Shown here one piece after another: positions 1 through 25,751 of a stretch of 25,751 nt of DNA. The stretch lies in the IMG/VR virus record IMGVR_UViG_3300031994_000480, positions 1 to 25,751 of that record; one strand, written 5' to 3'. How positions within the stretch are numbered: the first letter of the stretch is position 1; each line of letters begins with the position of its first letter. The DNA is from a virus. The translations under genes and the position numbers were made by a program. The notes under the pieces are model-generated. The model searched no databases. It was not told where the DNA came from and saw nothing but the letters and a program-made list of their open reading frames with translations.

Positions 1-127
1 ATCTACTAAAATACTTCTTGGCACAATTACATTATCATTATAATCGCCTTTATCTTGATGATATTCCGCACTTGAAGCCCAAGTTGTTAATTCATTTCCA
101 CTGCTACCAGCCATTACATTACCTCCT
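1..127. repeat. Terminal direct repeat, copy A; identical to 25625..25751 (circular-contig overlap or terminal redundancy)
   Basis: Base-by-base comparison of the first 127 nt with the last 127 nt shows identity. The gene starting at 25738 continues seamlessly from position 114 of copy A. Confidence 0.95.
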
Positions 128-1151
128 CGCTAGCATTAGCAAGAGCCAATGATATTACGCCATTTGCGTCAATGCTGATACCAGTGCCCGCAGAATAACT
201 AGGAACTTGGCTTAAAGCATTATCGACATAATTCTGCGTCGCATACCCAGTTAGACTTTGATGCGAAGTTAGATATCCAGCATCGTTCGTAAAAGCACTT
301 ATATTAGTTGGCACTGTTGGGATAGTTGGTTTATCTTGTAAATCATTATAAGACAAATCAGTAGCATCAACGCTAATTTCGTTATTCGCATCTATATCAA
401 TGCCAGTGCCTGCGGTATAGGTAGCACCGCCACCGCCTCCGCCAGATGGAACAGTCTCCCAAGACTTGGTTGATGTGCCATTTGAAACAGTATCTACAAG
501 CATATAAGTGCCGTCAGTAGATGGGAAGGTTGGTAAAGACTGTTGATATAAAGCAAATAAATCTTCCATTATTGTATTGGTTCCTGACATAAGACCTGTT
601 TTTATCAAACCACCCGGTCTGCCGCCCCAAAAATAACCCGTTATCTATCCATTGGCTATCGAAAAGTTTAAATTGGTAGCCCAGGTATTGCCCGAATCTA
701 TTACAAGACCAAATAATTTATAAGAAGACATATATGTATTTCGAGGACCGGGCTATATTATTTTAAAAGGAAACAAAGCGTAGGAATATGAAGAAAAATA
801 ATCTTCATCATATGGTATAATTTGATTTTCAAGAGAACTCTCATTGGTAGCATATATCACATATTTATCTTCAAGTCCATTTTCTATATCATCGATAAAA
901 TTAGTAAATAACTATCTTTTTTCAACCGGTATTGTAAAAATAGAAGTGCTAGTGCTAGCGGATATAAATTGTGGATTAGAATTTATTCGAACTATAACTA
1001 TATATCTTTGCTATGCTCCACTACTTCCGCCGGCATTTTCCGCCACATATTCTTTGATATTTTTGCTTAATTCGAGCAGTCCTTCTTTATTAACTAATTT
1101 ACCACTATTAATTAATTCATAATCAGTTGCGGGATTAATTTCGCCTGCCAT
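114..1151 (-). CDS. Fibre / receptor-binding-type protein (about 345 aa) with a poly-Gly hinge and xAGTGIxIDANxxIS motifs
   Basis: ATG at 1149-1151 follows AAGGAGGGG. Four in-frame TAGs start at 1011, 912, 753 and 645 (+ coordinates), and the same frame holds throughout. TAA stop at 114-116 overlaps the next ATG (TAATG). Confidence 0.7.
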
Positions 1152-1166
1152 TATAACCCCTCCTTA

Positions 1167-1736
1167 TTAGGAAGCAGAAGCAGCACTCCAAATAGTATCG
1201 ATATCATTATTACTCAAAGTCTCAATAGTGATTTGAGTATCTCCAATGATTTCCCAAGCATTATTAATATAAGCATACTCGGTATAAACATTATTGGTGC
1301 CTGCGGTGCCTTTTGCTACCAAGTAAATAGTAGAAGTAGAAATGTTTGTGGTAGGTAAAGTCTGGACGATTTCAAAACCAAAAGTAGTAATGTTGCCAAT
1401 AGCAGAAGTAATATCACTCATAGTAGCAACCTTATTAGAAGAAGCATTATAAGCGGTATTAAATACTAATTCATCCTGCTTGCCGCTAATGTCTGGGATA
1501 TCTGCCATAGTCGCAACCTTGTTGCTAGTAGCATTATAAGCGGTATTGAAAGCAAGAGCGTCCTGCTTACCGCTGATGTCAGGAATGTCTGCCATAGTTG
1601 CGGCTTTATTAGAAGTAGCATTATATTCAGTATTAAAAGCCAAGGTATCCTGCTTTCCTGCTACGGCTGACTTTACTAATCCACTGTAATAAACTAATTT
1701 ATCACCGGTTAAAACTTTATTATCATAACTTGCCAT
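1167..1736 (-). CDS. Fibre protein with three tandem 29-aa repeats (GKQDxLxFNTxYNAxSNKxATMxDIxxIS)
   Basis: ATG at 1734-1736 follows AAAGGAG. TAA stop, no TAG. The repeats are visible in the translation. Confidence 0.7.
   Translation of the reverse strand: MASYDNKVLTGDKLVYYSGLVKSAVAGKQDTLAFNTEYNATSNKAATMADIPDISGKQDALAFNTAYNATSNKVATMADIPDISGKQDELVFNTAYNASSNKVATMSDITSAIGNITTFGFEIVQTLPTTNISTSTIYLVAKGTAGTNNVYTEYAYINNAWEIIGDTQITIETLSNNDIDTIWSAASAS
1404..1658 (-). repeat. Three tandem ~87-bp coding repeats inside the fibre gene
   Basis: Near-identical nucleotide blocks, e.g. gtagcaaccttattagaagaagcattataagcggtattaaa and gtcgcaaccttgttgctagtagcattataagcggtattgaa. They encode the 29-aa repeat. Confidence 0.8.
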
Positions 1737-1754
1737 AATCGCATTTCTCCTTTA

Positions 1755-1949
1755 TTATATACTATTCCAAATGTCAAGAATATCACTATTAGATAGATAT
1801 TCATAATTGCCGGCAGGTCCTTGCGGTCCTGCTGGACCAGGAGGTCCCTCTGGACCCTGCGGACCAGGTGCTCCGCGGTATGTTGGATTTGAGAGTTCTG
1901 CCTCGATATAAGGTTCAGTCTCAATCATACTTACAATTATCTCATTCAA
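1755..1949 (-). CDS. Small collagen-like protein (64 aa) with 7 G-X-Y triplets
   Basis: GAPGPQGPEGPPGPAGPQGPAG is encoded at about 1809..1874, a local GC-rich patch. The ATG overlaps the upstream TGA (ATGA). TAA stop. Confidence 0.7.
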   Translation of the reverse strand: MNEIIVSMIETEPYIEAELSNPTYRGAPGPQGPEGPPGPAGPQGPAGNYEYLSNSDILDIWNSI

Positions 1950-2275
1950 AATGTGATACCTCCTTCAAACTTGAACTTGGCTGGTCCAAGGATAGTATCT
2001 ACTCGTCCATCTGCCCCGTCAAACTGAATGTCATACCAATAATTACCTGGCTCAATATCGGTATCTGCGGAGGACAACTGGATAATCGCTCTTCCATTCT
2101 AAAATGAAGTAATGGTCTTTTGAATGACGGGATTTTCTTTTTCTTTCTCTGTATTAACAGTAAAGATAATCTTATCTCCATCATCCAAAACATAATTACT
2201 TAATCCAATAGCAAAGGAGCCCGTATCTTTGACAATCATACGCATCTTTTTTGTATCTTTATCAAAGTAAAGCAT
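1946..2275 (-). CDS. Hypothetical structural protein (109 aa, beta-rich; possible Ig-like/decoration protein)
   Basis: ATG at 2273-2275 lies 5 nt after GGAGGTG. One in-frame TAG at 2099-2101. TGA stop at 1946-1948. The standard ORF track misses this gene and instead shows an off-frame ORF at 1999..2193. Confidence 0.6.
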
Positions 2276-2287
2276 TCCGGCACCTCC

Positions 2288-2593
2288 TTATTCATTTACT
2301 TGCTGTAAAGTTGCGAACCACTCATTTCCTCTCTTGATTTGGTTCAATACTCTATAATGTTTATTATTCCAACTATATCTAGCATTAGCACTAGTATCAA
2401 GAGAGATATTAGATACAACATTAATGTTATCTAATACACTTTTGCCATACGCAGTAATTTGTTCCATAGAACTGTCTATGGATACACTTGCGGGAATAGT
2501 TTCTTTCTACTCAATCGTTGGCGGCACATACCCGCCGCCCTCATCCTGCGTAGTGTGATAAATTAAACGAGTTAAAGTCTCTCTCTTAATCAT
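2288..2593 (-). CDS. Head closure / stopper protein (SPP1 gp16 / Phage_H_T_join-like)
   Basis: The ATG overlaps the TGA of the adaptor gene (ATGA). One in-frame TAG at 2507-2509. TAA stop at 2288-2290. Position directly after the adaptor and the C-terminal pattern YRVLNQIKRGNEWFATLQ fit this family. Confidence 0.55.
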
Positions 2594-2886
2594 ATACACT
2601 TTACCTTTCTATGCTTGTTTAACATACGAACTACCTTTTGGCTATAAAAACTATCATAAGTCATACTCACACCAGAACTCTTTTGCTCTGTTGTCCCCTC
2701 ACTACCAATGCGGTTGTATCTTTCTATAACCATTTGGATTACAATATAATCGAGGTCATCATTATATTCATCTAAATTACAGTAGATGTATGCTTCTTCT
2801 TTACACAGATTAATGAGGACAACAAGTAATTCATCGATGTTATCATCATCTTCTGTGTGTAATAACAATTTTAACTTATCAAGCAC
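2590..2886 (-). CDS. Head-tail adaptor (gp6-like / Phage_connect_1)
   Basis: GTG start at 2884-2886 follows AAGGAGG. Acidic N-terminus (HTEDDDNIDELL) and the position after the capsid gene fit an adaptor. No TAG. TGA stop. Confidence 0.55.
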   Translation of the reverse strand: MLDKLKLLLHTEDDDNIDELLVVLINLCKEEAYIYCNLDEYNDDLDYIVIQMVIERYNRIGSEGTTEQKSSGVSMTYDSFYSQKVVRMLNKHRKVKCI

Positions 2887-2954: not shown

Positions 2955-3731
2955 TTAAGCAACAGTAATCTTTACTAACTTGGTAGCGTCAGTCAAAGCA
3001 ACCAAAGCAACCTTGCGAGCATAGACCTTATTTTCACGAACATTAGCGTCGCGTTCTTGTTCGATTTCAGTGCTCTTCTTTACGAAAAGAGTAATGGCTT
3101 CTTTGGTAGCAAGATAACCAGTATCAGCAGGAACAGCCTTGGATACGATTACAGGAACACCACAAACAGAACCAATATAACCAGTGCGGACAAAGCCTTC
3201 AACATACTTCAAGTCGTCCTTCAAAGCCTTGCGGAAATCAGCCTGGTCGGCAGGAGAGATAAGCAAGAACAAGCCAGTCTCATCTTCAAGGTTCATCTTG
3301 GCAATAGCATCAACAACAGCATCAAAACTCCAAGCGGAAGCAGGAGCAAGAAGAGTTGCTTTATTATATTCAGCAATAGCCTTGGTGGTGAAGTCATTTA
3401 CCATCTGCTTGGCAAGTCCATCGAGACCCACATCGACTACCATAGGGTCAGTCATTTCCTGTTCATCATAATACTTGAAACGACCCTGGGTGGTGCCAAC
3501 CTCATACTCTTCTGGAACGAAACCAACTTCGATGTCTTCACTATTACCTACACCCATAGCAAGGTCTTCAACATTACCGGTAGCGGTATAACGATTAATA
3601 ACCTTCTTCATACCAGCATTTTCGGTAAGAGAATTATCAACAGTCATATAATTAGACAAGTCGATAGCAGTAGTCAAAATATCATTAATTTTATTTTCAA
3701 GAACAAAATTTTCATAAATGGTATGTGGCAT
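2955..3731 (-). CDS. Major capsid protein (small HK97-fold type, 258 aa)
   Basis: Uninterrupted ORF directly after the scaffold gene, with RBS AGGAGTG. Composition and position are typical of a major capsid protein. No TAG. TAA stop. Confidence 0.75.
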   Translation of the reverse strand: MPHTIYENFVLENKINDILTTAIDLSNYMTVDNSLTENAGMKKVINRYTATGNVEDLAMGVGNSEDIEVGFVPEEYEVGTTQGRFKYYDEQEMTDPMVVDVGLDGLAKQMVNDFTTKAIAEYNKATLLAPASAWSFDAVVDAIAKMNLEDETGLFLLISPADQADFRKALKDDLKYVEGFVRTGYIGSVCGVPVIVSKAVPADTGYLATKEAITLFVKKSTEIEQERDANVRENKVYARKVALVALTDATKLVKITVA

Positions 3732-3745: not shown

Positions 3746-4324
3746 TTATTGTGTTAATTCTTTATATAATGTGGGATTAGTTCTATATATTTCAGCCTGT
3801 TGTGCGAGGTTCAACTTGCGGAACTGCTCTTTTGTCATCCCGCCCTGTTGTGCGGACCCTGCTTTTGGAGTAGGCTGGGCTATCCTCTTGGCAACCGCGT
3901 CTGCGACTGCCGCCTTAAATGCCTTATCAAAAGCATCAATGTTAGCCATCATAGTTTCCGCATCTTCCGCGACAATATAATCAACAAACTCAACTGGAAG
4001 CCCTCTGTTAGCCATCACTTTCGATGCCTCTAACTTATTTTGAGCGATAGCAAACTCTCGCTCCTTCTGTTCGAGTTCTTCCACTTTCTTATTAAACTCA
4101 TATTCACGGCGTTGATTTTCATCCATCTCACGCAACTTATCGGCTTCTGCCTGTTGCTTATCGAGTTCAGCCTTCTGCTTCTTCAATGCTTGTGAAACTC
4201 TCCGGTCGCCCTCTTGTTGTAGCAACTTTCTAACTTCTTCTTCGGTGTAAGTTTTTGGTTCGTTATTCCCCTCATCAATAGGAGTTGAATTATTTTCCAA
4301 ACCCTTATTTTCTAATTCACTCAT
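3746..4324 (-). CDS. Scaffolding protein (charged coiled coil, DUF4355-like)
   Basis: Start taken at MSELENK (ATG 4322-4324) after AGAGGT. Glu/Lys/Gln-rich helical sequence immediately upstream of the capsid gene. No TAG. TAA stop. Confidence 0.7.
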   Translation of the reverse strand: MSELENKGLENNSTPIDEGNNEPKTYTEEEVRKLLQQEGDRRVSQALKKQKAELDKQQAEADKLREMDENQRREYEFNKKVEELEQKEREFAIAQNKLEASKVMANRGLPVEFVDYIVAEDAETMMANIDAFDKAFKAAVADAVAKRIAQPTPKAGSAQQGGMTKEQFRKLNLAQQAEIYRTNPTLYKELTQ

Positions 4325-4492: not shown

Positions 4493-4714
4493 ATGGCAAA
4501 ATACGCAATGTTCTGTATCTGTAATGGGGAATGTCTGTTTTTCTTCACTTATAATTCATTCGACGAAGCAAGAGACGCAATGAAGAAAGAGTATCAGCAA
4601 GCCCTTATCGATGAAGGTTATGACCCCGAAATGGATGAGACTTGTGAAGCAGACGACTTCTGCTGGATACATACTATGGACCACATTGGCTGGTATATTA
4701 AGCCTTTGTTTTAA
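4493..4714 (+). CDS. Small Cys-containing acidic protein, paralog 1 (73 aa), unknown function
   Basis: ATG at 4493, TAA stop, no TAG. Shares MAKYAMFCICNxEC...YNSF...AM.K.YQQAL...WIH..DHI.WYIKPLF with the next gene. Confidence 0.7.
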   Translation: MAKYAMFCICNGECLFFFTYNSFDEARDAMKKEYQQALIDEGYDPEMDETCEADDFCWIHTMDHIGWYIKPLF

Positions 4715-4761
4715 TGCTCTATCCAACCTATTATATAATATATAAGAAAGGAAACAAACTA

Positions 4762-4986
4762 ATGGCAAAGAAATACGCGATGTTTTGTATCTGTAATGAA
4801 GAGTGTCAGTCTTTCAACACTTATAATTCATTCTACGAAGCAGAAGAAGCAATGAGAAAAGCCTACCAACAAGCCCTTGGCGACGAACATTATAATGATT
4901 ATGACGCCGAATGGGATGATGAAGCAGACAAATACTGGATACACAGTGCCGACCACATCCATTGGTATATTAAGCCCCTGTTTTGA
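4762..4986 (+). CDS. Small Cys-containing acidic protein, paralog 2 (74 aa), unknown function
   Basis: ATG at 4762 follows the duplicated ttatataatatata...aagaaagg leader. TGA stop. The ORF-track start at 4714 is an upstream extension. Confidence 0.7.
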   Translation: MAKKYAMFCICNEECQSFNTYNSFYEAEEAMRKAYQQALGDEHYNDYDAEWDDEADKYWIHSADHIHWYIKPLF

Positions 4987-4991: not shown

Positions 4992-5019
4992 AGACCCAGT
5001 AAATCTGGGTCTTTTTTTT
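4992..5019 (+). terminator. Rho-independent terminator of the plus-strand gene pair
   Basis: Stem agacccag / ctgggtct, loop taaat, then a T8 run. It overlaps the TAA of the convergent minus-strand gene. Confidence 0.8.
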
Positions 5020-5905
5020 ATTCCTCTAAACTTTCTTCCTCTTCCCAAACAACAAAAGAACAAGCACAGTTAGGATGGTATGGCGGCAATTCGATATTTA
5101 TATGTGCGTCCTCTAATCTCACAGGGTCGCCATCCACATAATCCAAACAAATCCCACCACATTCAGCGTCTCCTACGATTTCCACATATTCAACGCCTGC
5201 CTCTAAATAAGTATCTATCAGTGCTTGGTTATAAAAAGCCATCGTCTCGGTCTTTATTAACCGAGCAGTATCATAGGCAGTAGCATTCGTGAGTTCTCGC
5301 CAAGCCCACTTCATCCACTCCATACCCTTGCCATTTGTTAGCCCTTCCCGCAGTATAAAATCTAATTTCTTCTAAAAGTTTGCGGTGTGCTCGTATAAAC
5401 GCTGGCTATAAGTTTTTCCATCGCTACACCAAGGGATAGGAAGCACTTTACTTGTAATATAAGTATCTGTAATTCTTACCTCTGCTTTTGCTTGAAGATG
5501 CGGTGGCTATGTATTATCTTTCCACATAGGGGTTCTTTGAAGAATAATATAAACATCTTTACTCCCTTGCTGATAAGTATTTATAAGACTTTCAGTAATA
5601 ACATTATATGCTATCCACTGTCTTTCAGTCATTCTCCATACTTCACGCATCTACATTTCTTTTATCGCATATTCAACAGCAGGAAACTTACTCAAATCTA
5701 TCTTGCGGATATCCCCTATATAAGGGTCCCGCAAATACTTCTCAATAATGGTTTGGAGTTCTGGTTCTAACTCCTCCCACATTTCATTCATTATCTCATC
5801 AAGTAATTGATACAACTCTGCGGTTTTTTCATAGGCATCAGCCAATACCTATAACACTTGACGCTGAACGCGTTCAGTCTTCGTTAGTTTGCTCTTTCTC
5901 TTCAT
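5018..5905 (-). CDS. Head morphogenesis protein (SPP1 gp7 / Mu F-like)
   Basis: C-terminal ECGGICLDY...ELPPYHPNCACSF motif. Four in-frame TAGs start at 5849, 5651, 5507 and 5372. TAA stop. The ATG at 5903-5905 is uncertain (weak RBS, overlaps the portal end). Confidence 0.7.
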
Positions 5906-7262
5906 AGTTCTTCATAGCACCAGTAGAGTAATTTAAACTCGCAGATTGTAGGAATGGGTTATTCATTTTGCTCTTCTCTTGCTCGCTAGCGAGTTGCTCC
6001 TGTTCCGCCTTCACATCTTCAACGAAAGGCACTTGTGCCAAGAGGGTCTTGTTAGATACAATACCGTCAAGACTAGAAACCATTTGTGCCAACTCACTCA
6101 AATTAGTAGGAATGTTGCGTCTAAATACAATATCAATAGCACGCCAATCAAATGACGCACCCATCAAGCCCTGTATCTGTGCGATAAGTTCAAAACGCTG
6201 TTGTAAGCCCTTCTTAAACTTACGCTCCTTAATAGATACCAAGTTTTCAGTCCCCAAAGTCTTAAACTGTATCGCTACGCCGCTACTATTACCAGCAAAG
6301 TTTTCATCACTCATATCGGGGCAGTGAGCGAACTTATGAATATCTTTATCCAGGCGGACTTTCATATTTTCAGTAGTTGTATCATTAGCATTTTTAATAA
6401 GCCATTCCGCCGAAGTGCCTTCGTCCATCAAGAGCACTCTATTCTCTTTCATCTTTGCGATGTCTTCTGGGTCTGCGGTAAAGCCATAAAGTGCCAAATA
6501 AGCATCTACGAAGTAATCAAAATCATTTACCGTATCGCTTTCCATTACATCATAAGCGTCGATAAGACTAATTACAGTTTCAAAGTCGCCTAACTGCTCT
6601 TCATTATTCTTATAAATAGCAATAGGAACCATACCAAAATAATGTGGTGTAGTTTCAACCAACTGGAAACTTCCTGCTTGCGTGCTTTTATAAGTGAATA
6701 CTTCTTTATCGGTATAGAGTTCTGCGATAGTAGTTTCTTTATTATCCTACAAGATATCATTAACAGTATAATATCGAATAAATGCGGTTAAGTTGTGTTC
6801 GATAGTCTCATCATAAATAGGAATACATTCTTTTGGGTCAAGAGCACAAAAACGCAACATAGGACGCCCCATACCTTCATCCTCTTGCTCCATATAAAGT
6901 AATTCATATGCTATACCATAGATGCTTGCGTTCTTTGCTAATTCAGTATTTTCATCAGCCTCATCATTATATTCAAGTATCATCTATAATTCTTTAAGCA
7001 TATCAGTCTCTTCTGCGTTATAAGTGATGGGCTCGCCCACAAAATAACCCACTAATGAACTAGTAATAAGATTAGCATAAGGATTTACGATTTTATTATT
7101 TGGCTTTGTTGGGTCTGCCATTGTTCTATCATTTATGCTGTGCTGCCCGACATAATACTTATATAATTTCACCAGACGAGCCAAATCACGCGTCTTATGC
7201 TAATCTACAATTTTTTTTACTAAATCTGGGGTATAAACCGTATCTTTTGATAAAGTAATCAA
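5874..7262 (-). CDS. Portal protein (SPP1 gp6-like)
   Basis: TTG start at 7260-7262 lies 7 nt after GGGAGG. KLYKYYVGQHSI and later portal-like blocks. Three in-frame TAGs start at 7200, 6984 and 6747, and four ORF-track pieces share one frame. TGA stop. Confidence 0.85.
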
Positions 7263-7275: not shown

Positions 7276-8517
7276 TTAAAACAATAATTTTTTATCGAGA
7301 GTATTCAACTATACTCGTGCGTCCAAGCACTATAATGAATATCGTAAAGCGTCTAAATAGTGGTTCCATTTGTCAATAGGCTCATTAATATACTCATTAG
7401 TCTGCTTGTCTTTCGTCCAAGAATAATTCTCTAATTCTTCTTTTATATTTACACAAGAGGGGTGAATGATTAACTCATATTGCTACAACTTTTGAATACC
7501 TTGTAATACCGAACCTTTGCCCTTGACGCTCGGCTTGGCATTACGCAAACCCATTTGCCGCAACTCGTCTATACTCTTTTGCTCCGCACTATCACATATA
7601 ATAGTAGATTTTGCGAAACCTAATCCACTTATCGCTTGTGCGATTTGATTATTAAGAAATCCCGTGCCACCCCACTCTTGAAATACATAGATGCGGTTTT
7701 CTGCGGGAACCAAGAGAGAAGCAACAAATGCGGTTGGGTCATTCGTGTATCCAAAGTCGCATCCGCATAATAACTAACCTTTTATACTCTTGGCATCAAA
7801 ATCCATTACTTGCCAATTATTATACACTAATTTTTCAAGAGAGCCAAATTCACCAAGAGCATAAATAGTATAATAAACAGGATTAGTTTCTTTCATACGC
7901 AAGAGTGTATCAATATACGCTTGCGGCAAGAACCTATTATGTAAATAATTCGTCTTAATTATATTAACATTACGCCGCAGTTCCATCATTTCTGGATTAT
8001 CTGCGAAAAACCATAAATAGCACCAATTTGCTTTTGATACTGGGTTGAATGACAGTATTATCTACTGCCCGGACGCATATGGGTCTCTTACACGCAAATC
8101 AACCTGGCTAAAATCATCCGCACAGAACTCTGTCGCTTCTTCCAACCAGGCATCAGTGAGACCTACTATTGACTTTATTTTCTCGGTGTCATCTAAACCG
8201 GAACATAAAAACTAACTTCCATTTGGTAAAGTAATGCTGTAATCCGTTCTATTTACAACACATTTATTAAGTATATTAAAGTTCGTTAAGGTATCCAAGA
8301 GCAACTAGAATGTAGATGCCTTGGTGGTGCGATTTACCTTGCGGAGAACCAGTATCTTGCGGACATCCTTCAATGCTTTAATAACTAACTTCTACGCAAC
8401 AAATACACTTTTTCCTGAACCTGCTCCGCCATAATATACTTCATAGCGTTTAGAGTAGTCCAAGAGATAAGGATAATAAACAGAATTAAATACATTCTTA
8501 TGGATATTAAGTTTCAT
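7276..8517 (-). CDS. terL: Terminase large subunit
   Basis: Walker A YYGGAGSGKS, followed by LEEATE, SFNP, CGCDFGY, FQEWGG and DALRYSL blocks. Eight in-frame TAGs start at 8392, 8305, 8212, 8062, 7774, 7483, 7330 and 7309. TAA stop at 7276-7278. Confidence 0.9.
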
Positions 8518-8911
8518 TTTTATCCCCAACAATAGAGACTTCAATCACATCTTTGGTTTCTACCTTTTGGTTCTGTAAGCCCAGATTTTTACTCAATAGG
8601 CTTAAAGCATTTAGTTTAGCAGAAGTAGTATAAACTTCATCGCCCTTCTGTGCGAATGCTATGCTCGCTAATTCACTATTAACTCTGTATGCGTCGATAC
8701 CCATAGCGTCATAGATTTCCTTTTTACGCATTTCTAGGTATTCTCTTACTTCTGGTTTCTGTAATAGTTTATATGGAGAAGCATTAAGTGTAGATTTATT
8801 AGTGATACCAAAAATATCTCTATAAGCATCCTATGCTTTATATCCATTAGATAGATATAATTCTACAAATGCTTTCCATTTAGTTTCTGGTGTTTTAGGA
8901 TTATAGCCCAT
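8507..8911 (-). CDS. terS: Terminase small subunit (Terminase_2 / P27-like)
   Basis: ATG at 8909-8911. YLSNGYKA[TAG]DAY resembles the NATQAA helix-turn-helix motif. One in-frame TAG at 8831-8833. The TAA stop overlaps the terL start. Confidence 0.7.
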
Positions 8912-9098: not shown

Positions 9099-9166
9099 AG
9101 TGTTTCCCCTCATTTATCTTGTTTCCAAGGTTATTTATTCCCTATTTTATATATTTTATATATTAT

Positions 9167-9270
9167 GCGGACGAAATCTGTCCGCTAAACCGGACTAAAT
9201 CTGTCCGCTACATTCCGGACTGTTTTCGTCCGCTTCCTGCTAGCAAATAGCGGACGAAATCTGTCCGCTA
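9167..9270. repeat. Array of four 20-21-bp self-complementary repeats (GCGGAC-N7-GTCCGC(TA)); candidate iterons/origin or operator set
   Basis: Copies at 9167-9187, 9190-9210, 9215-9234 and 9250-9270; the first and fourth are identical. An AT-rich tract at 9131-9166 flanks the array, which lies immediately 3' of the winged-helix gene. Confidence 0.8.
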
Positions 9271-9273
9271 CGA

Positions 9274-9657: not shown

Positions 9658-9685
9658 CTGTCTTATCTCCCATCTGTCTTATCTA

Positions 9686-9883: not shown

Positions 9884-9902
9884 AATGACTTATCTCCTTT
9901 TG

Positions 9903-10124: not shown

Positions 10125-10134
10125 TTTTTTATTT

Positions 10135-18500: not shown

Positions 18501-21423
18501 CGCCTTTATAATAATTTACATAGAATGAGCCAATTTGCTGAACTGGGTCTGTAATAGGATAACTATCATCATCACGGATATTAAAACTATTTTGACCGGT
18601 AGCATCTTCAAAGAAAGACTGACTTACTTTATCATACAAGCAATTACTAGGAGCAACTTGCGAACCGATTTTATCATAATACTGAACCGGGATAAGGTCT
18701 CTTACCACTTCTCCATCATATTCAATAATACAATTATAAATCTCAATTCCTGCTAAACCGCCAGTATAAACGCCAGCATTATTATTCGCAAATAAATAAA
18801 GTGGGAATGGCATCCGTGCGTGGTCTGTTGCTACTCTATTAGAGTAGTTGAAAACAGCAACAGAATAACCGTCCGCACTAGGATTACTATAAATACCAGA
18901 ATTAGGACCCCATCCAATCGCATTACTTTCTGTTAATACAAGAGGAGCACTATGCTGACCCGCCCTAGCCTCATAAGTATTTACGCCACTTAAATTAGTG
19001 CCATACATTGTTTGGTTGTTAAATCTCATAAAGTATTCACCAAAAGAAGAAGAACTACCAAACAAATAAGCATAACCGGCATTTACTTGGCTCATTGGTG
19101 TATATTCATCAACTAATCCGCACTTTATCTTAACAGTTAATTTACTCATATCTTCACAAGTAAAGCCTGTGTTAATATAAGCGTGCGGGAAATGCCAATT
19201 TGGATGCTGTCCTTCATATCCGCCTAAATCATTATGCTGTAAGAATAACACTCTGTGAGGATATTCAATATCACCTGGTTCATCAGGCTCACTTACAGTA
19301 TCATAAACAACATCAATACTAGTAAGTTCGCGTAATGCGGTGAAATTAACTGGACCGCGATACTGGACGATACCGTCTGCCGCGAATACATTCTTATACT
19401 GATTAATTTTTAGTCCTAAATCAATAAGAGTAGTGTCCGCGGAAAAATCAATAACACGATAATTAATAGTATCACTGCCAACCCAGTTTCTAACATCGAC
19501 ATCATCTGTATAATAATTTATAACAGTGTAATAAGTAGAAGCATAATATAATACGCTATAACTGGTTGCCAAAGTTTCAAAAGTAATTACCTGGCTATCA
19601 CTTACTCCATCCAAAATACCAGTTTCATAGTATTCTGGCTTATGTGCGTTTAGGTCAATGATATCTTTAAGCCGTGCTCCGCCAATCAATTCATTCTCGC
19701 TAACAGTAATAATCGCTGTGCTAATAGTTGAAAAAGCACTTGCTAACTGTTGCTTATAACGAATAATAATATCTTTCGTGCGAGTAGTCTAGATTTCAGT
19801 ATAAATAATATAAATAGGCTGTGCGTAAGTTAAAGCATCTAATGATACTTCGCCTTTATAACTCGCCTCTGGGTCAAATTGATATCCAGTAGGTTTATGT
19901 CCTGTAATATCAACAATATCTCCTAACAAAGGCTGATTATAGAACTGCGTGATATTTATATTAATAGTTTCTTCGGTGTATAAATTACTGTCATCTTTCT
20001 TATAGCGAACAGTAAGAGGATATTCAATAGGCACATAATAAACCTATAAAGCACCCGCTTCAATTACACTATCAAAAGTATGATATAAACCAGCATTATA
20101 CAAAACACCGTTTTGATAATTACCAGTAAGATATTTATCAAGGTCTATCCCGATATTTTCTAAACTGAAATCTTCTTCATAACTTGAATTATATTTCAAA
20201 AGGATAGGAGATGTAGCAAGACGATACCAATTAGGATAAGTGCCCGCATAGTATTCTATATACACTACATATTCTATTCTACGATAATCAATGTAATAAG
20301 ATGTTTCAAGTTCATCGTAATTAACGAAGTCAGTGCGGTTATGACTATCTATGTAGCCAGGGTGATAATACTCTGGGGTTGGACGCCAAGCGTCAAAATT
20401 AAAAATGTCTTCAAATGTTGTTCCTTCAACGATACGAGTTTCAGGGACAGATACCAAAACACTTTCAATAATGTCATATTCTCCATTATCGTTTTCATTA
20501 CGATAAGTTAAAGTGATATTTTTAATTCGGTCATCATCGATATGAGTATATTGGACGAAAATAGGACTTGCCGCAAGCAAGTTTTCAACAATCAAACCTT
20601 GATTATATAAAATCTTCGCACTATATCCTTCTGGACGATAATTATTTACTTTAATTAATTCACCAACAGAACGCATCGCTTGGATTTGCGGATAAGTGAA
20701 AGGAATAGTTTCTTGAAGGCTCTGTTGATAGCCACTGCCACTATCAATAATATAACGAACTTCAACGCTATACTGAATGGGCTCATAATTAATGATAAGA
20801 ACGCCAAGAGACTGTAAGTTATCATAGGTTAATTCCATCAAGCCTAAATTAGAAGCAACACCAGATTTATAATGTTCGTCCTTAAACTTATCAACATCAA
20901 TACCAATAGATGATAAAGTTGGAGTTTCTTGCTCGCTAAATGAAACAGAACGGATAAGAACTGTATCCTGTCCTACGAAAATGTTGCCGTTTTGATAATA
21001 TACTACATTTAAGCGGAAAGTGCTAGTCGCACCAATATCAGTTGTATATACTTCTCTATCTAATGAACGAGCATATCCGCTAGCCAAATCATATGTAATT
21101 AAAAAATTGCCATTCTTTAAGCGAGAAGGCTTATTAGTCCCATTAAATACAACATCAAATTGAAAATCTAAATCATCAAATTTAATAGTTGCTTTCTTTA
21201 ACATTTGGGTTAATTGGCTCATTTTTAGGAATGCCTCTTGTTCGTCTGGTTCGAGAACCAAAAATGTCAAAGTCATTTTCTTAAAAGTGTCCTATGAACG
21301 AACATAATATGGCTCTAAACTTCCATCCGCCCATTCATTAACCGCTTTCACTGTATTGGAGGTAAGTATTCTGTCATATAACTTTATATTTAATGAAGTT
21401 ATATCAATTCCATTAATAAGCAT
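12586..21423 (-). CDS. Giant tail protein (2,945 aa): Dit N-terminal domain, ~10 beta-rich ~80-aa repeats, three lectin-like modules and SH3b-like segments
   Basis: ATG at 21421-21423 follows GGAGG. Ten ORF-track pieces plus the gaps between them (all checked codon by codon) share one frame. Thirteen in-frame TAGs start at 21292, 20044, 19789, 18478, 17734, 17668, 17269, 16783, 16435, 16012, 15718, 14155 and 13465. No TAA or TGA occurs until TAA 12586-12588. Confidence 0.8.
17734..21050 (-). repeat. Protein-level array of ~75-85-aa repeats (..V.YY.DD....(K/R)PEGY..), MucBP-like by pattern
   Basis: Recurring strings RYYTDDVDILN, NYYTDDVDVRN, VRYYKDTND, NYRPEGYSA, NKYKPEGYE, GHKPTGYQ, AHKPEYYE, WRPTPEYY and FKPEKYY. 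The copies are too divergent to be DNA repeats. Confidence 0.5.
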
Positions 21424-21435: not shown

Positions 21436-22002
21436 TTATCTATAATTAAATACCGCATATATGTCTTGTAAAGAGTTATAATGCTACATTACACCCTTAT
21501 AATATAATTTACTTTGCTTGTTTTCGATATCAAAAATCTATCTCTATAATTGAAGAGATTTTTCTAACGCTTCATATTCCTTGCGTCTGGCTTTTTCAAT
21601 AGCAGTCTATTTAGCGAGTATCCGCTCTCCTATTCTTTTGGTTTGCGGCTCTGCTTGTAAATAACGCAAATCTTGTTCTAACTTTTCAACTCGTTTGCGT
21701 GCCGCAGGCTCTACATTATTAATCTATTTTTTTAATGACTGTCTATATCTTCTGCTTTGAGAATTATAACTTTTTGCGTCTTTTAAGTTATCGCTAATAG
21801 ATTTACGCATATTGTTGCGTAAGTTCTTTAAATTTTCTGCGTCCTATTTTTTGAAACGCTCACGATAACCCCAATCTATTTCTTCATTCGCACCTTTATT
21901 TTCTCGATAGTATTTTTTTAAAAAACTATTATCTTTTTTATCTTGCCATTGAGATGTTATAATGCTAAATCTTCTTTCTACGGCGTCAAGAATATCACTC
22001 AT
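21436..22002 (-). CDS. Basic coiled-coil protein (188 aa) in the tape-measure position
   Basis: The ATG overlaps the chaperone stop (ATGAGTGA). Seven in-frame TAGs start at 21844, 21724, 21607, 21544, 21538 and 21484 region (six listed here plus hand translation total of seven). TAA stop at 21436-21438, followed by GGAGG and the Dit start. Confidence 0.5.
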
Positions 22003-22495
22003 TTAACAGCACCTCACATACTGACTAACGCTCTACCATATTTCCAACAGCGAACTCATCAGGTTCTGTTAAAGATATTGGAGAAGTATTGTCCTATAAA
22101 CTCTCTAATACTGCTATTTTTATTATATTTGCTAATGTCTCTTGGCGTTTTTGATACCCTTTATATGCTAATTCTATTTCACCAGGAGACATCTATAAAG
22201 CAATGTTAGGGTCTATACCAATCTCACCAACGGCTTGACTATATAGACCCTGAAAATCAATAGAGAAAAAGGAGACCTATTCAACTAATGAAGGAATGAA
22301 ACGCTTAAACAGTCCTTTTGAGTATAACTCTTTCGCCGCGGTAGGACTTAAATGATTTTCATCAAAAGTAATCAAACCTGCGGCGAAAAAATCACTCTCA
22401 TCATACTATGATAAAGACTGTAAATATATTATCCCACGCAGTCCAATTTTGAACCAGTAATCTTTACCGTCAATAGTAATCAATTGTTTATTCAT
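21995..22495 (-). CDS. Tail assembly chaperone (positional call, 166 aa)
   Basis: The ATG overlaps the major tail gene stop (ATGAATAA). Five in-frame TAGs start at 22406, 22277, 22193, 22094 and 22025. TGA stop at 21995-21997. Confidence 0.5.
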
Positions 22496-22886
22496 TAATA
22501 ACACTCAATTCTCCATTACCTAATAACTTTGCTTTGTATTTATAGGTATCATTATATGCCGCGACCAAAGGGAACTCTGTAAATAATGCTTGTCCCTTAT
22601 ATTTTTTGTTATCTAATTCTACTTCTACTGCGACATCTTGATTATTCCTAAACGCTTGCTATAAAGTATTATATGCCGCACTATCTTTTACATATAATCC
22701 ATCGCAACTAATAGACCAAGATTTTACGCCGCCCAAATACTCTTTCCAAACCGCATCTATTTTGTTCGTGATATCAATAGATGCTGCTGACTGTATCAAG
22801 GTTGCGTTAAGTTGTCCCGCCAGTTTCTCTCCCGCAATAATTATAGATACTTTTATACCCTTTTGGGTGTTATTCACCATCTTCAT
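22488..22886 (-). CDS. Major tail protein (TP901-1 / phi13-type)
   Basis: GEKLAGQLNATL..SAASIDITNK...WKEYLGGVKSWSISCDGLY pattern. ATG at 22884-22886 follows GGGGGA. One in-frame TAG at 22659-22661. TAA stop. Confidence 0.7.
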
Positions 22887-23271
22887 CGGCAAGTCCCCCT
22901 GTTATGATAAAAGTAAAGTTAGCAACACCGTGTTTGCGGAGAGGTCCTGTCTCATTATCGTCAAGAATTTGAAGCCTATTAAGATAACAATAAGTGATAT
23001 TATTATTTTCAATAAACTGTGGCAAAGATTTAATAATCTCATCGACGATTTCAATAATTTCTTGCTCGCCACTATATCTAGTAAAGATATCAAGAGTGTA
23101 AGTAATGTTTGACATTACCAAATCCCTTGCGTGCCGTGCGGTCAAATTATGAAGACGCAACTTCAAAAAAGGAAAATCATTTTCATCGTGATAAGCACCA
23201 GTATCATATACAGTTTTACCTGTTATCTCTTGTATATGAGAACGAAAGGCTTCTTTAATATCTTTCAACAT
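22870..23271 (-). CDS. Tail completion / terminator protein (DUF3168-like)
   Basis: VYDTGAYHDENDFPFLKL pattern and position directly upstream of the major tail gene. No TAG. Confidence 0.5.
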   Translation of the reverse strand: MLKDIKEAFRSHIQEITGKTVYDTGAYHDENDFPFLKLRLHNLTARHARDLVMSNITYTLDIFTRYSGEQEIIEIVDEIIKSLPQFIENNNITYCYLNRLQILDDNETGPLRKHGVANFTFIITGGLADEDGE

Positions 23272-23272
23272 T

Positions 23273-23455
23273 TTATTTTACCTCATCTACAAGTTTATAA
23301 TTTTTCAAATCATCTTGCGAACTAATAGAAATATATTTCGCATATAGATGTTCTTCTATTTCAGTAATAGTGCCATCTGGTTCTTTAATTTTTGTAATAG
23401 GCGGATTAGCCCAATCATAAACCTTGCCTTTGGGAGCAGTGTATAAAGTATTCAT
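23273..23455 (-). CDS. Small hypothetical protein (60 aa), paralog of 24223..24423
   Basis: RBS AAGGAGG. Shares KV(Y/F)DW....EEHLYAK..(F/S)IS..D...NY..(I/V)DE with the other copy. No TAG. Confidence 0.6.
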   Translation of the reverse strand: MNTLYTAPKGKVYDWANPPITKIKEPDGTITEIEEHLYAKYISISSQDDLKNYKLVDEVK

Positions 23456-23467
23456 TTAATAGCCTCC

Positions 23468-24217
23468 TTAAATAATTTCTAAATCATATGATGCTACAAA
23501 AGAGATAAGTTCATCATCTAATAGTTCAAGTTCGCCTTCGCCCCAACTATCATAATCGCCAGAAAAAATCTCTTCAAAAATAGAAAAAATGGCTTCAATT
23601 AATGCTATGACAACCGCACAAATTAAATCGGCTATTAAACTTGACTATTCGGTTTGTTCGATATGATGATTTCTATTTTCTTCAACTTCATCTATTCTCT
23701 CTAAAATCTCATTTCTTTCAGCCTCTAACTATTCCATCTCATCTTCGTCTTCACAATCCGCAGCCTACGCTTCAACATCAGCCAACTATTCATATAAGTC
23801 TTGTAGTTCCTAATCGGCTTCTTCTGCCATCCCATCATTTTCTTCAAAGTCTGCTACTGGTTCGATTAATTCTGCTTCTGCTTCTTCTTCTTGGCTTTCA
23901 GCAACAATATCGCAACAAGCATTTGCTAAATCGTCTAAATACATTTCAATAGCAGGTTCAAAATAAGGTTGTGCTTCCATCTTATATGTCCCGTATTCCA
24001 CATACTAGGCATACTCACAACTAACTGGGATGGAGCAATAGGTCTATGACACTATCGCTCCATCACCTATTGTGCTTCGTAGATAACCAGTGCGGACAGG
24101 ACAGTTTGCTTGTGCGTCGTTAATTACCGCATCAACAAAATCTTGGAGAGGCTTACTATAATCAAGGTCATCAGGCAAGCCCCAATCGGCGACATCTACT
24201 TCACACAAAAGACCCAT
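23468..24217 (-). CDS. HK97 gp10-like neck protein with a long acidic C-terminal extension and one hydrophobic helix
   Basis: ANCPVRTGYLRSTI ... CEYA[TAG]YVEYGTYKMEAQPYFEPAI. Seven in-frame TAGs start at 24044, 24005, 23810, 23786, 23765, 23729 and 23645. TAA stop at 23468-23470. Confidence 0.7.
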
Positions 24218-24222
24218 AATAA

Positions 24223-24423
24223 TTACTCCTTTACGGGTTCATCTATTTCAACATAATTTTCGATATTATCAGTGATACTTATAAAAAGTGTTTTAGCATA
24301 AAGATGGTCTTGTATAACATTACCTTCTTCGTCTTCGTGTGTGTGTTCGGCAAGTTCTTTCCAATCAAACACTTTTCCTTCATCTGCGTCATATCGAGTT
24401 AATGTATATTTATTACTAACCAT
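24223..24423 (-). CDS. Small hypothetical protein (66 aa), paralog of 23273..23455
   Basis: ATG at 24421-24423 follows AAGGAGAA. No TAG. TAA stop. Confidence 0.6.
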   Translation of the reverse strand: MVSNKYTLTRYDADEGKVFDWKELAEHTHEDEEGNVIQDHLYAKTLFISITDNIENYVEIDEPVKE

Positions 24424-24436
24424 TTTTGTTCTCCTT

Positions 24437-25738
24437 TTAAGCAATACTTACAGTCCAACCTTTTGCTGTTGCGACTGCTATTTCGGCAGCGGTAAGGTCA
24501 TCAATTCCGCCTTCATCAGTGGAATTACCTGACCCGGCTTTAAACGCAATAGTATTACCATTATTCTCAACAGCAGAAGTATCAGGTAATGTATTAATAG
24601 TTTCAACCGCACTTGTATGATTATATCTACTATATGCTAATGATTTGCTCCACCAATTAGGATTATTTTTCATTTGATTATAAGTAGTAGCATCTACCAC
24701 AGGCTCATTTTCACCAGTTCCTTCTTTAAGTGCGGCTAATTCATAACCTGTATTACCACTATAATAACCTACTCCATTACTACGCAAATCTAAATACTAT
24801 TTTTTCCAATAGGCAGTATAAGGTTGATTATTTGTGTCTAACTAAAAAGTAAAACGCGATAATCTATGTGCGGCATTTACACAATTACTAAACTAATCAC
24901 TAGTAAAAATAGTAGTAGCATTAGTAGAATGATGAGAAATAGGCACATTTAAAATCGCAGGAACGCAAAATGCCTAATATGCTAATGACGAATATGGATA
25001 CTGATATATGCTTGATGTTCCTGCGTCTTCATAAGACAAAAAACTAAAATCTATCGATTTATTTAAGCGAATACAATTACTATATATTGATGTTAAAGAA
25101 AATGTCCCTGAACTATTAATAATAGATGTATTAGAAAAATCAAATAGTTCTTGTAAATAATAACACTCATTAGCCAAGCCATTAAAATCAGTATTAATTG
25201 TGCCTGTTATATGAGGTGGTTTTATACAATTTTCGCAACCTTTTATTAACGATGCTACTGAACTACCCCTTGTAGAAGAGCAATTAATAGTTATATTAGA
25301 CAAATCTGTTATTTGAGTTGAATTCACAAACATATAACTTGCCAAAGTAATACTATTAAACTACATTTTATCGCCATACTGATTTAATACCCAAGACCAC
25401 TTATTTGAACTAAATAAGTTCTACACATTTCCGGTGAAAGTCAAATCTGCTGTTGTAGGAGTATAGCCTCCTCCTACTTCTAAATTACCAATTTCAGTAG
25501 CGAAATACTCTGGACTAATACCAGGACTACCAACAGTAGAACTAATAAAAGTATCTCCAAACACATCTACATCGCTTTTGACTGTTGCTGTTCCATACTT
25601 TTTAATTCTTATGGCATCCGCGGTATCTACTAAAATACTTCTTGGCACAATTACATTATCATTATAATCGCCTTTATCTTGATGATATTCCGCACTTGAA
25701 GCCCAAGTTGTTAATTCATTTCCACTGCTACCAGCCAT
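24437..25738 (-). CDS. BspA-type leucine-rich-repeat protein (433 aa), probable adhesin / receptor-binding protein
   Basis: Repeated F.N/GC..L..I.F patterns (LIKGCENCIKP, FNGLANECYYLQEL, IYSNCIRLNKSIDF, FSNCVNAAHRL). Six in-frame TAGs start at 25421, 25361, 24974, 24893, 24842 and 24797. Three ORF-track pieces share one frame. TAA stop. Confidence 0.6.
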
Positions 25739-25751
25739 TACATTACCTCCT
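25625..25751. repeat. Terminal direct repeat, copy B (identical to 1..127)
   Basis: Same 127-nt string as the window start. Confidence 0.95.

What the first reader, a model, noticed from the sequence alone, without database searches (positions are those of the whole stretch)
1..25751. Genome-wide reassignment of TAG to a sense codon (probably Gln)
Under the standard code every long conserved gene is fragmented: terL into 9 pieces, portal into 4, and the 8.8-kb tail gene into 14. Every break is TAG. The flanking pieces always stay in the same frame, and I found no in-frame TAA or TGA inside any rebuilt gene. Every rebuilt gene ends in TAA or TGA. My hand count is about 73 in-frame TAGs. Conserved motifs run straight across the TAGs: GGAGSGKSVFVA[TAG]KLV after the terL Walker A, D[TAG]IDHIDRNPLNN in the HNH core, YA[TAG]YVEYGT in the gp10 family, and NGYKA[TAG]DAY where terS families have NATQAA. 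Gln is the best guess, because TAG is one transition from CAG and TAG-to-Gln recoding is already known in crAss-like and other gut phages. I cannot prove the amino-acid identity by eye. Any standard-code annotation of this contig will be badly wrong.
Basis: partly seen in the sequence, partly recalled or inferred. Interest (0 to 1): 0.9.

Follow-up and report, generated by a model that had tools for sequence, protein, structure and literature searches.

The report
Phage that reads TAG as glutamine
This is a complete 25.6-kb gut or rumen phage genome that uses the stop codon TAG 73 times inside its genes as a glutamine codon, a real but already documented kind of phage code change, and it carries no tRNA of its own to read TAG.

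Summary
All 29 long genes lie on the minus strand and hold 73 in-frame TAGs: terL 8, portal 3, the 8.8-kb tail gene 13. None holds an in-frame TAA or TGA, and the stops are 23 TAA, 6 TGA and 0 TAG. Reading TAG as sense raises minus-strand ORF coverage from 51% to 90%; reading TGA as sense adds almost nothing.

Gln is supported by two independent tests. In recoded relatives, codons opposite the window's TAGs are TAG 102, CAA 85, CAG 43 and GAA 35. In 80 standard-code prophage terL genes, two conserved columns opposite TAG are Gln in 69/73 and 72/80. Gln is the best fit in both likelihood tests.

This is the known code-15 phenomenon. It closely resembles the small TAG-recoded temperate clades of Borges et al. 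(Topaz, Garnet), and close relatives carry that study's cattle sample names. The verdict is a new member of a known kind.

Four further points:
- The window is a complete circular genome (127-bp end overlap) with no detectable tRNA.
- Scaffold, capsid and the relatives' integrase genes avoid TAG, whereas terL, MuF-like and HNH genes are enriched.
- Two relatives have no in-frame TAG at all.
- What decodes TAG remains unknown.

The parts
1..127 (.). Terminal overlap, identical to 25625-25751. The window is a closed circle with 25,624 bp of unique sequence.
   Evidence: Exact 127-bp direct terminal repeat. The stop of g32 and the start of g1 abut across the junction.
114..1151 (-). g32, fibre-like protein, 345 aa, 4 in-frame TAG
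   Evidence: No Pfam or PHROG hit.
1167..2886 (-). g31 to g27: small structural genes, including a collagen-like 57-aa gene and the head-tail adaptor g27. TAG occurs only in g28 and g29 (1 each).
   Evidence: phrog_132 head-tail adaptor, E=2e-22; gene table.
2955..3731 (-). g26, major capsid protein, 258 aa, 0 TAG
   Evidence: phrog_544, E=7.5e-22. Across the family, TAG makes up 1 of 55 Gln-type codons.
3746..4324 (-). g25, scaffolding protein, 192 aa, 0 TAG among 16 Gln codons
   Evidence: phrog_172, E=3e-39. Across the family, TAG is 2 of 162, Fisher p=1.8e-9.
4493..4986 (+). Two paralogous 73- and 74-aa genes (4493-4714 and 4762-4986). They are the only plus-strand genes and are TAG-free. 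They sit at the variable spot where relatives carry an integrase.
   Evidence: synteny.
5018..5905 (-). g21, MuF-like minor head protein, 295 aa, 4 TAG
   Evidence: phrog_115, E=2.5e-24. Across the family, TAG is 31% of Gln-type codons, p=6e-7.
5874..7262 (-). g20, portal protein, 462 aa, 3 TAG (aa21, 93, 172)
   Evidence: phrog_64, E=3e-144 over residues 10-438. 150 diverse homologues span all three sites.
7276..8517 (-). g19, terminase large subunit, 413 aa, 8 TAG (aa42, 71, 102, 152, 248, 345, 396, 403)
   Evidence: aa152 is Q in 69/73 and aa345 is Q in 72/80 standard-code homologues.
8507..8911 (-). g18, terminase small subunit, 134 aa, 1 TAG (aa27)
   Evidence: phrog_51, E=1.4e-16. The column is variable in relatives.
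9099..9273 (-). Intergenic region with four copies of the hairpin motif GCGGAC-N7-GTCCGC. These are putative iterons (origin or pac site).
   Evidence: Sequence read directly. No RNA family or tRNA hit.
9274..11104 (-). Regulatory and replication block: g16 replication-initiator-like (0 TAG), g15 (1 TAG), g14 (0), g13 HNH endonuclease (5 TAG), g12 HTH regulator (3 TAG). Small g17 (1 TAG) lies at 8922-9098.
   Evidence: phrog_270, phrog_959 and phrog_2967; gene table.
11172..12573 (-). g11, Tal-like tail protein (351 aa, 3 TAG), and g10, Dit (117 aa, 0 TAG)
   Evidence: phrog_18110, phrog_3475 and phrog_33. Orthologues in relatives carry PF06605 and PF22768.
12586..21423 (-). g9, 2945-aa tail gene at the tape-measure position, 13 TAG
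   Evidence: A single TAA/TGA-free frame. Orthologues of 2864-2969 aa in relatives. No Pfam or PHROG hit.
21436..24423 (-). g8 (6 TAG), g7 (5), g6 major tail (1), g5 tail terminator (0), g4 (0), g3 Neck1/gp10-like (7), g2 (0)
   Evidence: phrog_1407, phrog_176 and phrog_5; gene table. In relatives, g3 aa71 shows only TAG, CAG or CAA.
24437..25738 (-). g1, fibre-like protein, 433 aa, 6 TAG. Its 5' end lies in the terminal overlap.

Best explanation
The window is the complete circular genome (25,624 bp) of a siphovirus-type tailed phage. Its nearest relatives come from cattle rumen and pig gut metagenomes.

**The code (shown).** The phage is written in genetic code 15. TAA and TGA terminate, TAG never does, and TAG is a third glutamine codon. 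TAG accounts for 73 of 320 Gln-type codons, or 23%.

**Uneven use of TAG (shown).** Genes whose products are needed in bulk avoid TAG: scaffold and major capsid. So does the initiator-like gene, and so do the relatives' integrases, which on the published model are made in a standard-code setting. Low-copy enzymes and regulators are enriched: terL, MuF-like, HNH and HTH.

**How TAG is decoded (inferred).** The genome encodes no tRNA, release factor or aminoacyl-tRNA synthetase. Decoding must therefore use something supplied in trans. The most likely agent is a glutamine-accepting tRNA with anticodon CUA from the host cell or a co-resident element, charged by the host GlnRS and competing with RF1.

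**How the code arose (inferred).** The published route fits. TAG was first lost as a stop in a low-GC lineage, as in two relatives with no in-frame TAG. It then re-entered reading frames as a Gln codon.
For: **TAG is sense**
- Frames of up to 2945 codons hold 73 TAGs and no TAA or TGA. No gene ends in TAG.
- ORF coverage rises from 51% to 90% when TAG is read as sense.
- Rebuilt genes match full-length profiles. Standard-code homologues run uninterrupted through the TAG columns.
- TAGs are spread evenly along genes and show no context bias.

**TAG is Gln**
- Opposite the window's TAGs, relatives have TAG 102, CAA 85 and CAG 43. Log-likelihood is -802 for Gln against -1090 for Glu.
- Relatives' TAGs align to 4.5% of the window's Gln cells, against at most 0.5% for any other amino acid.
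- Conserved Gln columns in standard-code terL are Q in 69/73 and 72/80.
- Site-level columns contain only TAG, CAA or CAG.

**Not an error**
- TAGs are conserved in independent assemblies.

**No decoder in the genome**
- ARAGORN finds no tRNA in the window or in the relatives' loci. Relaxed settings give no CUA candidate.
- Rfam finds no tRNA or ribozyme.
- Intergenic regions were read directly and hold nothing tRNA-like.

**Gene-wise bias**
- Integrases have 0 TAG among 69 Gln codons.

**TAG-free relatives**
- L013 and L014 have no in-frame TAG.

**Literature**
- Borges et al. describe small TAG-recoded temperate clades with TAG-free integrases. They found suppressor tRNAs in only 40% of TAG-recoded genomes.
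- Peters et al. showed TAG-to-Gln by metaproteomics in crAss-like phages.
Against: - There is no protein-level evidence for this phage, so the inserted residue is inferred from evolution only.
- The decoding agent was not found. The host is unknown, and no integrated copy or close relative was found in 185,579 species genomes or in the metagenome scan with the integrase.
- If the host uses the standard code and the phage brings no suppressor, it is unclear how a gene with 13 TAGs is translated.
- An HTH regulator that may act early carries 3 TAGs, which fits poorly with a simple model of early genes in standard code and late genes recoded.
- The gene-wise statistics pool related genomes, so the p-values are optimistic.
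Confidence: 0.88

Rival explanations
1. The TAGs are real stops. On this reading the contig is a decayed prophage full of nonsense mutations, or the TAGs are sequencing or assembly errors.
For: Under code 11 the genes are fragmented.
Against: - Only one of the three stop codons interrupts genes, and the frame is always kept. There are 0 in-frame TAA or TGA against 1288 off-frame.
- TAG sites are shared by independent assemblies from other samples.
- TAG sites exchange specifically with CAA and CAG.
- The family is abundant and repeatedly assembled at near-full length, about 25 kb (the window itself closes on a 127-bp overlap).
Confidence: 0.01
2. TAG is sense but encodes something other than Gln, for example pyrrolysine from a Pyl-using host, or Glu, Lys, Leu, Tyr or Trp.
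For: - Some TAG columns are variable (portal aa21 and aa172, terS aa27).
- GAA is the fourth most common partner codon.
- Pyl-decoding microbes exist in rumen and gut (my own knowledge).
Against: - Gln wins both likelihood tests by wide margins: 288 and 174 log units.
- Conserved Gln columns are 90-95% Q.
- The commonest partner is CAA, two mutations from TAG, and CAA and CAG occur in the genome's own usage ratio. That pattern is expected only for synonymous codons.
Confidence: 0.04
3. The phage simply matches its host. On this reading the host bacterium itself reads TAG as Gln, or has lost RF1, so no code switch occurs.
For: - The complete genome has no suppressor tRNA.
- TAG occurs in all functional classes, including an HTH regulator.
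- Phages that match a recoded host are known for code 25.
Against: - Relatives' integrases and the plus-strand genes avoid TAG completely: 0 of 69 Gln codons in integrases. This is the pattern reported for recoded prophages sitting in standard-code hosts.
- All known bacterial reassignments involve UGA, not UAG (Shulgina and Eddy).
- The nearest standard-code relatives are prophages of ordinary Bacillota.
- Only 58% of genes carry TAG. Phages that match a recoded host carry the recoded codon in about 90% of genes.
Confidence: 0.08
4. The phage makes its own, unrecognised code-switch factor. Candidates are a non-canonical suppressor RNA, or a small protein that disables RF1 so that host tRNA-Gln(CUG) reads UAG by first-position G-U pairing.
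For: - Several small genes have no known function (g2, g4, g14, g15, g17, g28, the two plus-strand genes).
- Recoded relatives share g12, g15 and g16, which the one TAG-free relative examined across this region (L013) lacks.
- Borges et al. raise non-canonical tRNAs and modification of the host machinery as possibilities.
- Near-cognate reading of UAG by tRNA-Gln is documented (abstract of PMC13192750).
Against: - No structured RNA candidate was found in the short intergenic regions.
- No gene resembles a translation factor.
- Near-cognate reading is unlikely to be efficient enough for 13 TAGs in one gene.
- The gene-content contrast rests on one partial genome.
Confidence: 0.1

Closest known systems
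Topaz clade of alternatively coded phages (Borges et al., bioRxiv 10.1101/2021.08.26.457843)
   Same: - TAG is recoded to Gln.
- Genomes are small (22 +/- 3 kb; curated prophage 23.7 kb).
- They are found in animal guts, including pig and cattle.
- The predicted host is a Firmicute (Oscillospiraceae).
- The structural genes form one recoded block.
- The integrase is TAG-free.
- The window's relatives L006 and L024 carry 'Cattle_ERR2019xxx_scaffold' names of the style used in that study.
   Different: - Clade membership could not be tested because no Topaz sequence was available here.
- The window is 25.6 kb and has no integrase. Two small plus-strand genes occupy that site.
Garnet clade (same study)
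   Same: These are small TAG-recoded temperate phages. The curated prophage is 24.4 kb and its integrase is TAG-free. About 71% of genes carry in-frame TAG.
   Different: Garnet infects Prevotella (Bacteroidetes). The window's nearest standard-code and cultured terL relatives are from Clostridia and other Bacillota.
crAss-like and Lak phages using code 15
   Same: They use the same reassignment, TAG to Gln, concentrated in structural and lysis genes. It was confirmed by metaproteomics for crAss-like phages (PMC9523058).
   Different: - Their genomes are 95-660 kb and their hosts are Bacteroidetes.
- Suppressor tRNAs and, in some Lak and Agate phages, an RF2 gene have been reported in these lineages, and early genes can be read in standard code.
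- The window is 25.6 kb and carries none of these factors.
Clostridium phages vB_CpeS_BG3P and phi8074-B1 (closest cultured relatives by terL)
   Same: terL is 48-50% identical over its full length. These are siphovirus-type phages of Clostridia.
   Different: Their terL genes read as single uninterrupted matches, so they appear to use the standard code. Their genomes are about 48 kb. No record in the GenBank phage collection reaches 60% terL identity.

Membership tests
Phage using genetic code 15 (TAG = Gln) | Conserved genes are interrupted only by in-frame TAG, with the frame preserved and no in-frame TAA or TGA. | tested here: met
   73 TAG, 0 TAA and 0 TGA in 8060 codons of 29 genes.
Phage using genetic code 15 (TAG = Gln) | Coding density rises under TAG-as-sense but not under other reassignments. 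| tested here: met
   ORFs of at least 100 aa cover 51% (code 11), 90% (TAG sense) and 55% (TGA sense).
Phage using genetic code 15 (TAG = Gln) | TAG is not used as a terminator. | tested here: met
   Stops are 23 TAA, 6 TGA and 0 TAG. The two plus-strand genes end in TAA and TGA.
Phage using genetic code 15 (TAG = Gln) | Columns opposite TAG in homologues are glutamine. | tested here: met
   Gln is the best fit in both likelihood tests. terL aa152 is Q in 69/73 and aa345 is Q in 72/80. Relatives show TAG, CAA or CAG at these sites.
Phage using genetic code 15 (TAG = Gln) | A phage-encoded suppressor tRNA(CUA). This is frequent but not universal, reported in 40% of TAG-recoded genomes. | tested here: not met
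   No tRNA was found by ARAGORN at default or relaxed settings or by Rfam, in the window or in relatives.
Phage using genetic code 15 (TAG = Gln) | Gln at TAG shown at the protein level. | not testable with these tools
   No proteomic data are available.
Topaz clade (Borges et al.) | terL falls inside the Topaz clade of their terL tree. | not testable with these tools
   No Topaz sequences or supplementary tables are held. The only indirect lead is that relatives carry cattle scaffold names of the style used in that study.
Topaz clade (Borges et al.) | Genome of about 22 +/- 3 kb, with the structural genes forming one recoded block. | tested here: met
   25,624 bp, at the upper edge of the range. 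One minus-strand block carries all the TAGs.
Topaz clade (Borges et al.) | Temperate, with a TAG-free integrase. | tested here: inconclusive
   The window has no integrase. Relatives' integrases have 0 TAG among 69 Gln codons. No integrated copy was found.
Topaz clade (Borges et al.) | Firmicutes host that uses the standard code. | tested here: inconclusive
   The host was not identified. The nearest standard-code terL genes are in Clostridia and other Bacillota genomes and in Clostridium phages.
Tailed phage (Caudoviricetes), siphovirus-type | terS, terL, portal, scaffold, major capsid, adaptor, tail terminator, major tail, Dit and Tal. | tested here: met
   PHROG matches for all of these.

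The most novel reading that the evidence does not exclude
A complete 31-gene code-15 phage has no tRNA, release factor or synthetase, yet carries TAG in most gene classes. It may switch or exploit the cell's code by a route not yet described. One route is dependence on a suppressor tRNA carried by the host or by another resident phage. Another is a small phage protein or RNA that silences RF1 so that host tRNA-Gln reads UAG. The steep gene-wise TAG gradient would then work as a translational dosage or timing device. Scaffold, capsid, integrase and initiator are TAG-free, while terL, MuF-like, HNH and HTH genes are TAG-rich.
Probability: 0.15. Interest if true: 0.8.

Novelty: new member of a known kind. 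Interest (0 to 1): 0.35.

Why it matters
**Annotation.** Standard-code annotation of this contig and of its large family is badly wrong. The terL search returned 6327 matches in public data, and the 120 best are all at least 70% identical. Some PHROG families look like terL and portal fragments produced by such mis-annotation.

**Biology.**
- At 25.6 kb and 31 genes, this is a very compact complete example of a TAG-recoded phage with no decoder of its own. That makes it a tractable system for the open question of how the roughly 60% of recoded phages without a detectable suppressor tRNA get TAG read.
- The family holds a full gradient, from genomes with no in-frame TAG to genomes where TAG is a third of Gln-type codons. 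That is useful for studying how a stop codon is captured.

Tried and rejected
- **TGA or TAA as sense.** Neither gives a gain on the coding strand.
- **A hidden suppressor tRNA.** The following found no tRNA with anticodon CUA:
  - ARAGORN at default, -ps90, -ps80, mitochondrial and intron modes;
  - Rfam E-value scans of the whole window and of the intergenic block;
  - direct reading of all gaps for YU-CUA-R loops;
  - ARAGORN over all 185 fetched loci, 2.08 Mb.
- **Host identification.**
  - The genome-contig scan with a terL alignment found only relatives at 53% identity or less.
  - The metagenome scan with the relatives' integrase found close copies only on phage-sized contigs with phage flanks. 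Only integrases at 60% identity or less sat next to tRNA genes.
  - The single 52-kb contig is twice the phage length. It shows the circular gene order across the integrase, so it is probably a dimer.
- **Topaz membership.** Supplementary tables of Borges et al. and the journal version are not held.
- **Database proteins as evidence for Gln.** This was rejected as circular. The database had already translated TAG as Q ('translates_to_query: no'). It was replaced by codon-level comparison and by standard-code homologues.
- **Portal columns alone.** Too variable to decide.
- **Sequence context or position of TAGs.** No bias was found.
- **Pfam and PHROG searches of the 2945-aa gene and the other unknown genes.** Nothing was found.

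Full report
**What the window is**

The 25,751-base window has 35% G+C and an exact 127-bp overlap between its two ends. It is therefore a closed circle of 25,624 unique bases, most likely a circular metagenome assembly.

All long genes lie on the minus strand. PHROG searches of the rebuilt proteins give a standard siphovirus-type set:
- terS, terL and portal (phrog_64, E=3e-144);
- MuF-like minor head protein, scaffold and major capsid;
- head-tail adaptor, Neck1/gp10-like protein and tail terminator;
- major tail protein, Dit and a Tal-like protein;
- an HNH endonuclease, an HTH regulator and a small replication-initiator-like protein.

**Checking the observation**

With TAA and TGA as the only stops, minus-strand ORFs of at least 100 aa sum to 8573 aa, with a longest of 2945 aa. 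Under the standard code the sum is 5067 aa and the longest is 520 aa. Treating TGA as sense changes little.

My gene table has 29 minus-strand genes and 8060 codons.

There is no in-frame TAA or TGA, although these triplets occur 703 and 585 times off-frame inside the same genes. Stop codons are 23 TAA, 6 TGA and 0 TAG.

ORFs of at least 100 aa cover 51% of the sequence under code 11, 90% with TAG as sense and 55% with TGA as sense. The TAGs are spread evenly along genes and show no neighbouring-base bias.

**TAG is not a protein end and not an error**

The rebuilt terL and portal match full-length profiles across their TAGs. In 80 prophage loci from bacterial genomes that use the standard code, terL is a single uninterrupted ORF covering at least 350 of 413 residues in 76 cases. 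Those ORFs run straight through the columns where the window has TAG.

Independent assemblies from other samples share the TAG sites. L026 is 96% identical in DNA and keeps 17 of 18 aligned TAGs; the other is CAG. L024 is 87% identical and keeps 27.

**Which amino acid**

The public protein database already shows Q at these positions in thousands of relatives. That is circular, because the loci do not translate to those proteins under table 11. The database had called them with TAG as Gln. I therefore used two other tests.

1. *Codon-level alignment with relatives.* The 431 cells opposite the window's TAGs are TAG 102, CAA 85, CAG 43 and GAA 35, then minor codons.
   - CAA is two mutations away from TAG. 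CAA and CAG appear in the genome's own usage ratio (169:78), as expected for synonymous codons.
   - I scored the residues opposite TAG against the empirical substitution profile of each amino acid in the same alignments. Gln scores -802 log units and the next best, Glu, scores -1090.
   - In the other direction, relatives' TAGs align to 4.5% of the window's Gln cells and to at most 0.5% of cells of any other amino acid.
2. *Standard-code homologues.* terL aa152 is Q in 69 of 73 and aa345 is Q in 72 of 80. Over all 653 cells Gln is again the best fit (-1747, against -1921 for Met).

At six of eight terL TAG sites, and at the HNH (aa83) and gp10-like (aa71) sites, relatives show only TAG, CAA or CAG.

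The terS TAG column is variable in relatives (I, V, R, A, L). By eye, against one relative's terS (L013), it falls one residue before the position equivalent to the Q of NATQAA.

**The family**

The terL search returned 6327 matches. The 120 best are all 411-413 aa long and 70-98% identical, and sit on contigs of up to about 26 kb. Sources include cattle rumen assemblies and pig gut assemblies.

No GenBank phage record reaches 60% terL identity. The closest cultured phages infect Clostridium perfringens and C. sporogenes, at 48-50%. No genome among 185,579 species representatives carries a close relative, and the best are prophages of Clostridia and other Bacillota at 53% or less.

Among relatives, the share of TAG in Gln-type codons runs from 0 to 33%. 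Two relatives, L013 and L014, are 72% identical in terL. They have no in-frame TAG at all in 19 and 17 orthologous genes, either as sense or as stop.

**Uneven use of TAG**

In the window, TAG is 23% of Gln-type codons, but scaffold (16 Gln codons) and major capsid have none. Across ten or so relatives the pattern holds.

| Gene | TAG among Gln-type codons | Fisher p |
|---|---|---|
| Scaffold | 2 of 162 | 1.8e-9 |
| Major capsid | 1 of 55 | 0.003 |
| Initiator-like g16 | 1 of 44 | 0.015 |
| terL | 25% | 5e-7 |
| MuF-like | 31% | 6e-7 |
| HNH | 30% | 0.016 |
| HTH regulator | 35% | 0.029 |

These genomes are related, so the p-values are optimistic.

Relatives carry an integrase between the MuF-like gene and the scaffold gene. 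Integrases at 75% identity or more have 0 TAG among 69 Gln codons. The window has no integrase. At that spot it has two paralogous TAG-free genes on the plus strand.

**How TAG is decoded**

This is the unresolved part. I found no tRNA on either strand:
- ARAGORN at default and relaxed settings found none with anticodon CUA.
- Rfam found no tRNA or ribozyme.
- The few intergenic regions hold terminators, promoter-like AT-rich sequence and four copies of a GCGGAC-N7-GTCCGC hairpin.
- No relative locus has a tRNA.
- No gene resembles a release factor or a synthetase.

Because the genome is complete, the decoder must come from outside it or be of an unrecognised kind. The TAG-free integrases argue that the host uses the standard code, as reported for recoded prophages. 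All known bacterial reassignments involve UGA.

My best inference is a glutamine-accepting tRNA(CUA) supplied by the host or by a co-resident element. An unrecognised phage factor and a TAG-reading host are kept as rivals.

**Comparison with what is known**

TAG-to-Gln recoding in gut phages is established. Borges et al. surveyed 473 alternatively coded phages, down to 14.7 kb, from hosts that include cattle and pigs. Their findings relevant here:
- They found suppressor tRNAs in only 40% of TAG-recoded genomes.
- They described small temperate clades, Topaz (22 +/- 3 kb, Oscillospiraceae) and Garnet (Prevotella), whose integrases avoid TAG.
- They proposed loss of TAG stops in low-GC lineages as the first step towards recoding.

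Peters et al. confirmed Gln at TAG by metaproteomics in crAss-like phages.

The window fits this picture point by point, and two relatives carry cattle scaffold names of the style used in the Borges study. Membership of the Topaz clade itself could not be tested, because no Topaz sequence or table was available.

**Verdict**

The phenomenon is known, so this is a new member of a known kind. Its specialist interest is moderate and comes from four things:
- a complete, very small recoded genome with no decoder of its own;
- avoidance of TAG by the most abundant structural proteins;
- loss of the integrase in this lineage;
- sister genomes that have dropped TAG from reading frames altogether.

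Noticed in passing
window 12586-21423 (-): A 2945-aa gene sits at the tape-measure position, between the tail-chaperone-position genes and Dit. It has no Pfam or PHROG match and is rich in Tyr, Asn and Asp rather than coiled-coil-like. Orthologues of 2864-2969 aa are conserved in relatives.
   Followed up: partly
window 9099-9273 (-): Four copies of the hairpin motif GCGGAC-N7-GTCCGC lie directly after the TAG-free replication-initiator-like gene and upstream of terS. They are probably iterons of an origin, or a packaging site.
   Followed up: no
window 4493-4714 (+) and 4762-4986 (+): Two paralogous Cys-rich acidic 73- and 74-aa genes are the only plus-strand genes, and both are TAG-free. They sit at a variable spot between the MuF-like and scaffold genes. 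Relatives carry different cargo there: an integrase plus a 105-aa reverse gene (L002, L005), a methyltransferase-like gene with 4 TAG (L007), or nothing (L024).
   Followed up: partly
whole window: No recognisable holin, endolysin or integrase was found in a complete genome, so how this phage lyses its host is not apparent from the annotation.
   Followed up: no
window 24223-24423 (-) and 23273-23455 (-): g2 and g4 are paralogous 60-66-aa genes that flank the Neck1/gp10-like gene g3.
   Followed up: partly
PHROG families 3717, 6672, 5653 (terL) and 9064, 8065, 8418 (portal): These short families match only parts of the rebuilt terL and portal. They look like standard-code fragments of recoded genes that were clustered as families of their own.
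   Followed up: no
L013 1-20375 and L014 1-15219: These relatives, with 72% terL identity, have no in-frame TAG at all, as sense or as stop. L013 also has a different regulatory block: an integrase after Tal, a GIY-YIG-like gene and a small RHH-like gene. It lacks homologues of g12, g15 and g16, which the recoded relatives share.
   Followed up: partly
L005 (contig k141_100508, 52,010 bp): This contig is twice the phage length and shows the circular gene order across the integrase. It is probably a head-to-tail dimer rather than an integrated prophage.
   Followed up: no
window 2887-2954 (-): A strong hairpin followed by a T-run lies directly after the major capsid gene. It is a likely terminator or attenuator inside the late operon.
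   Followed up: no
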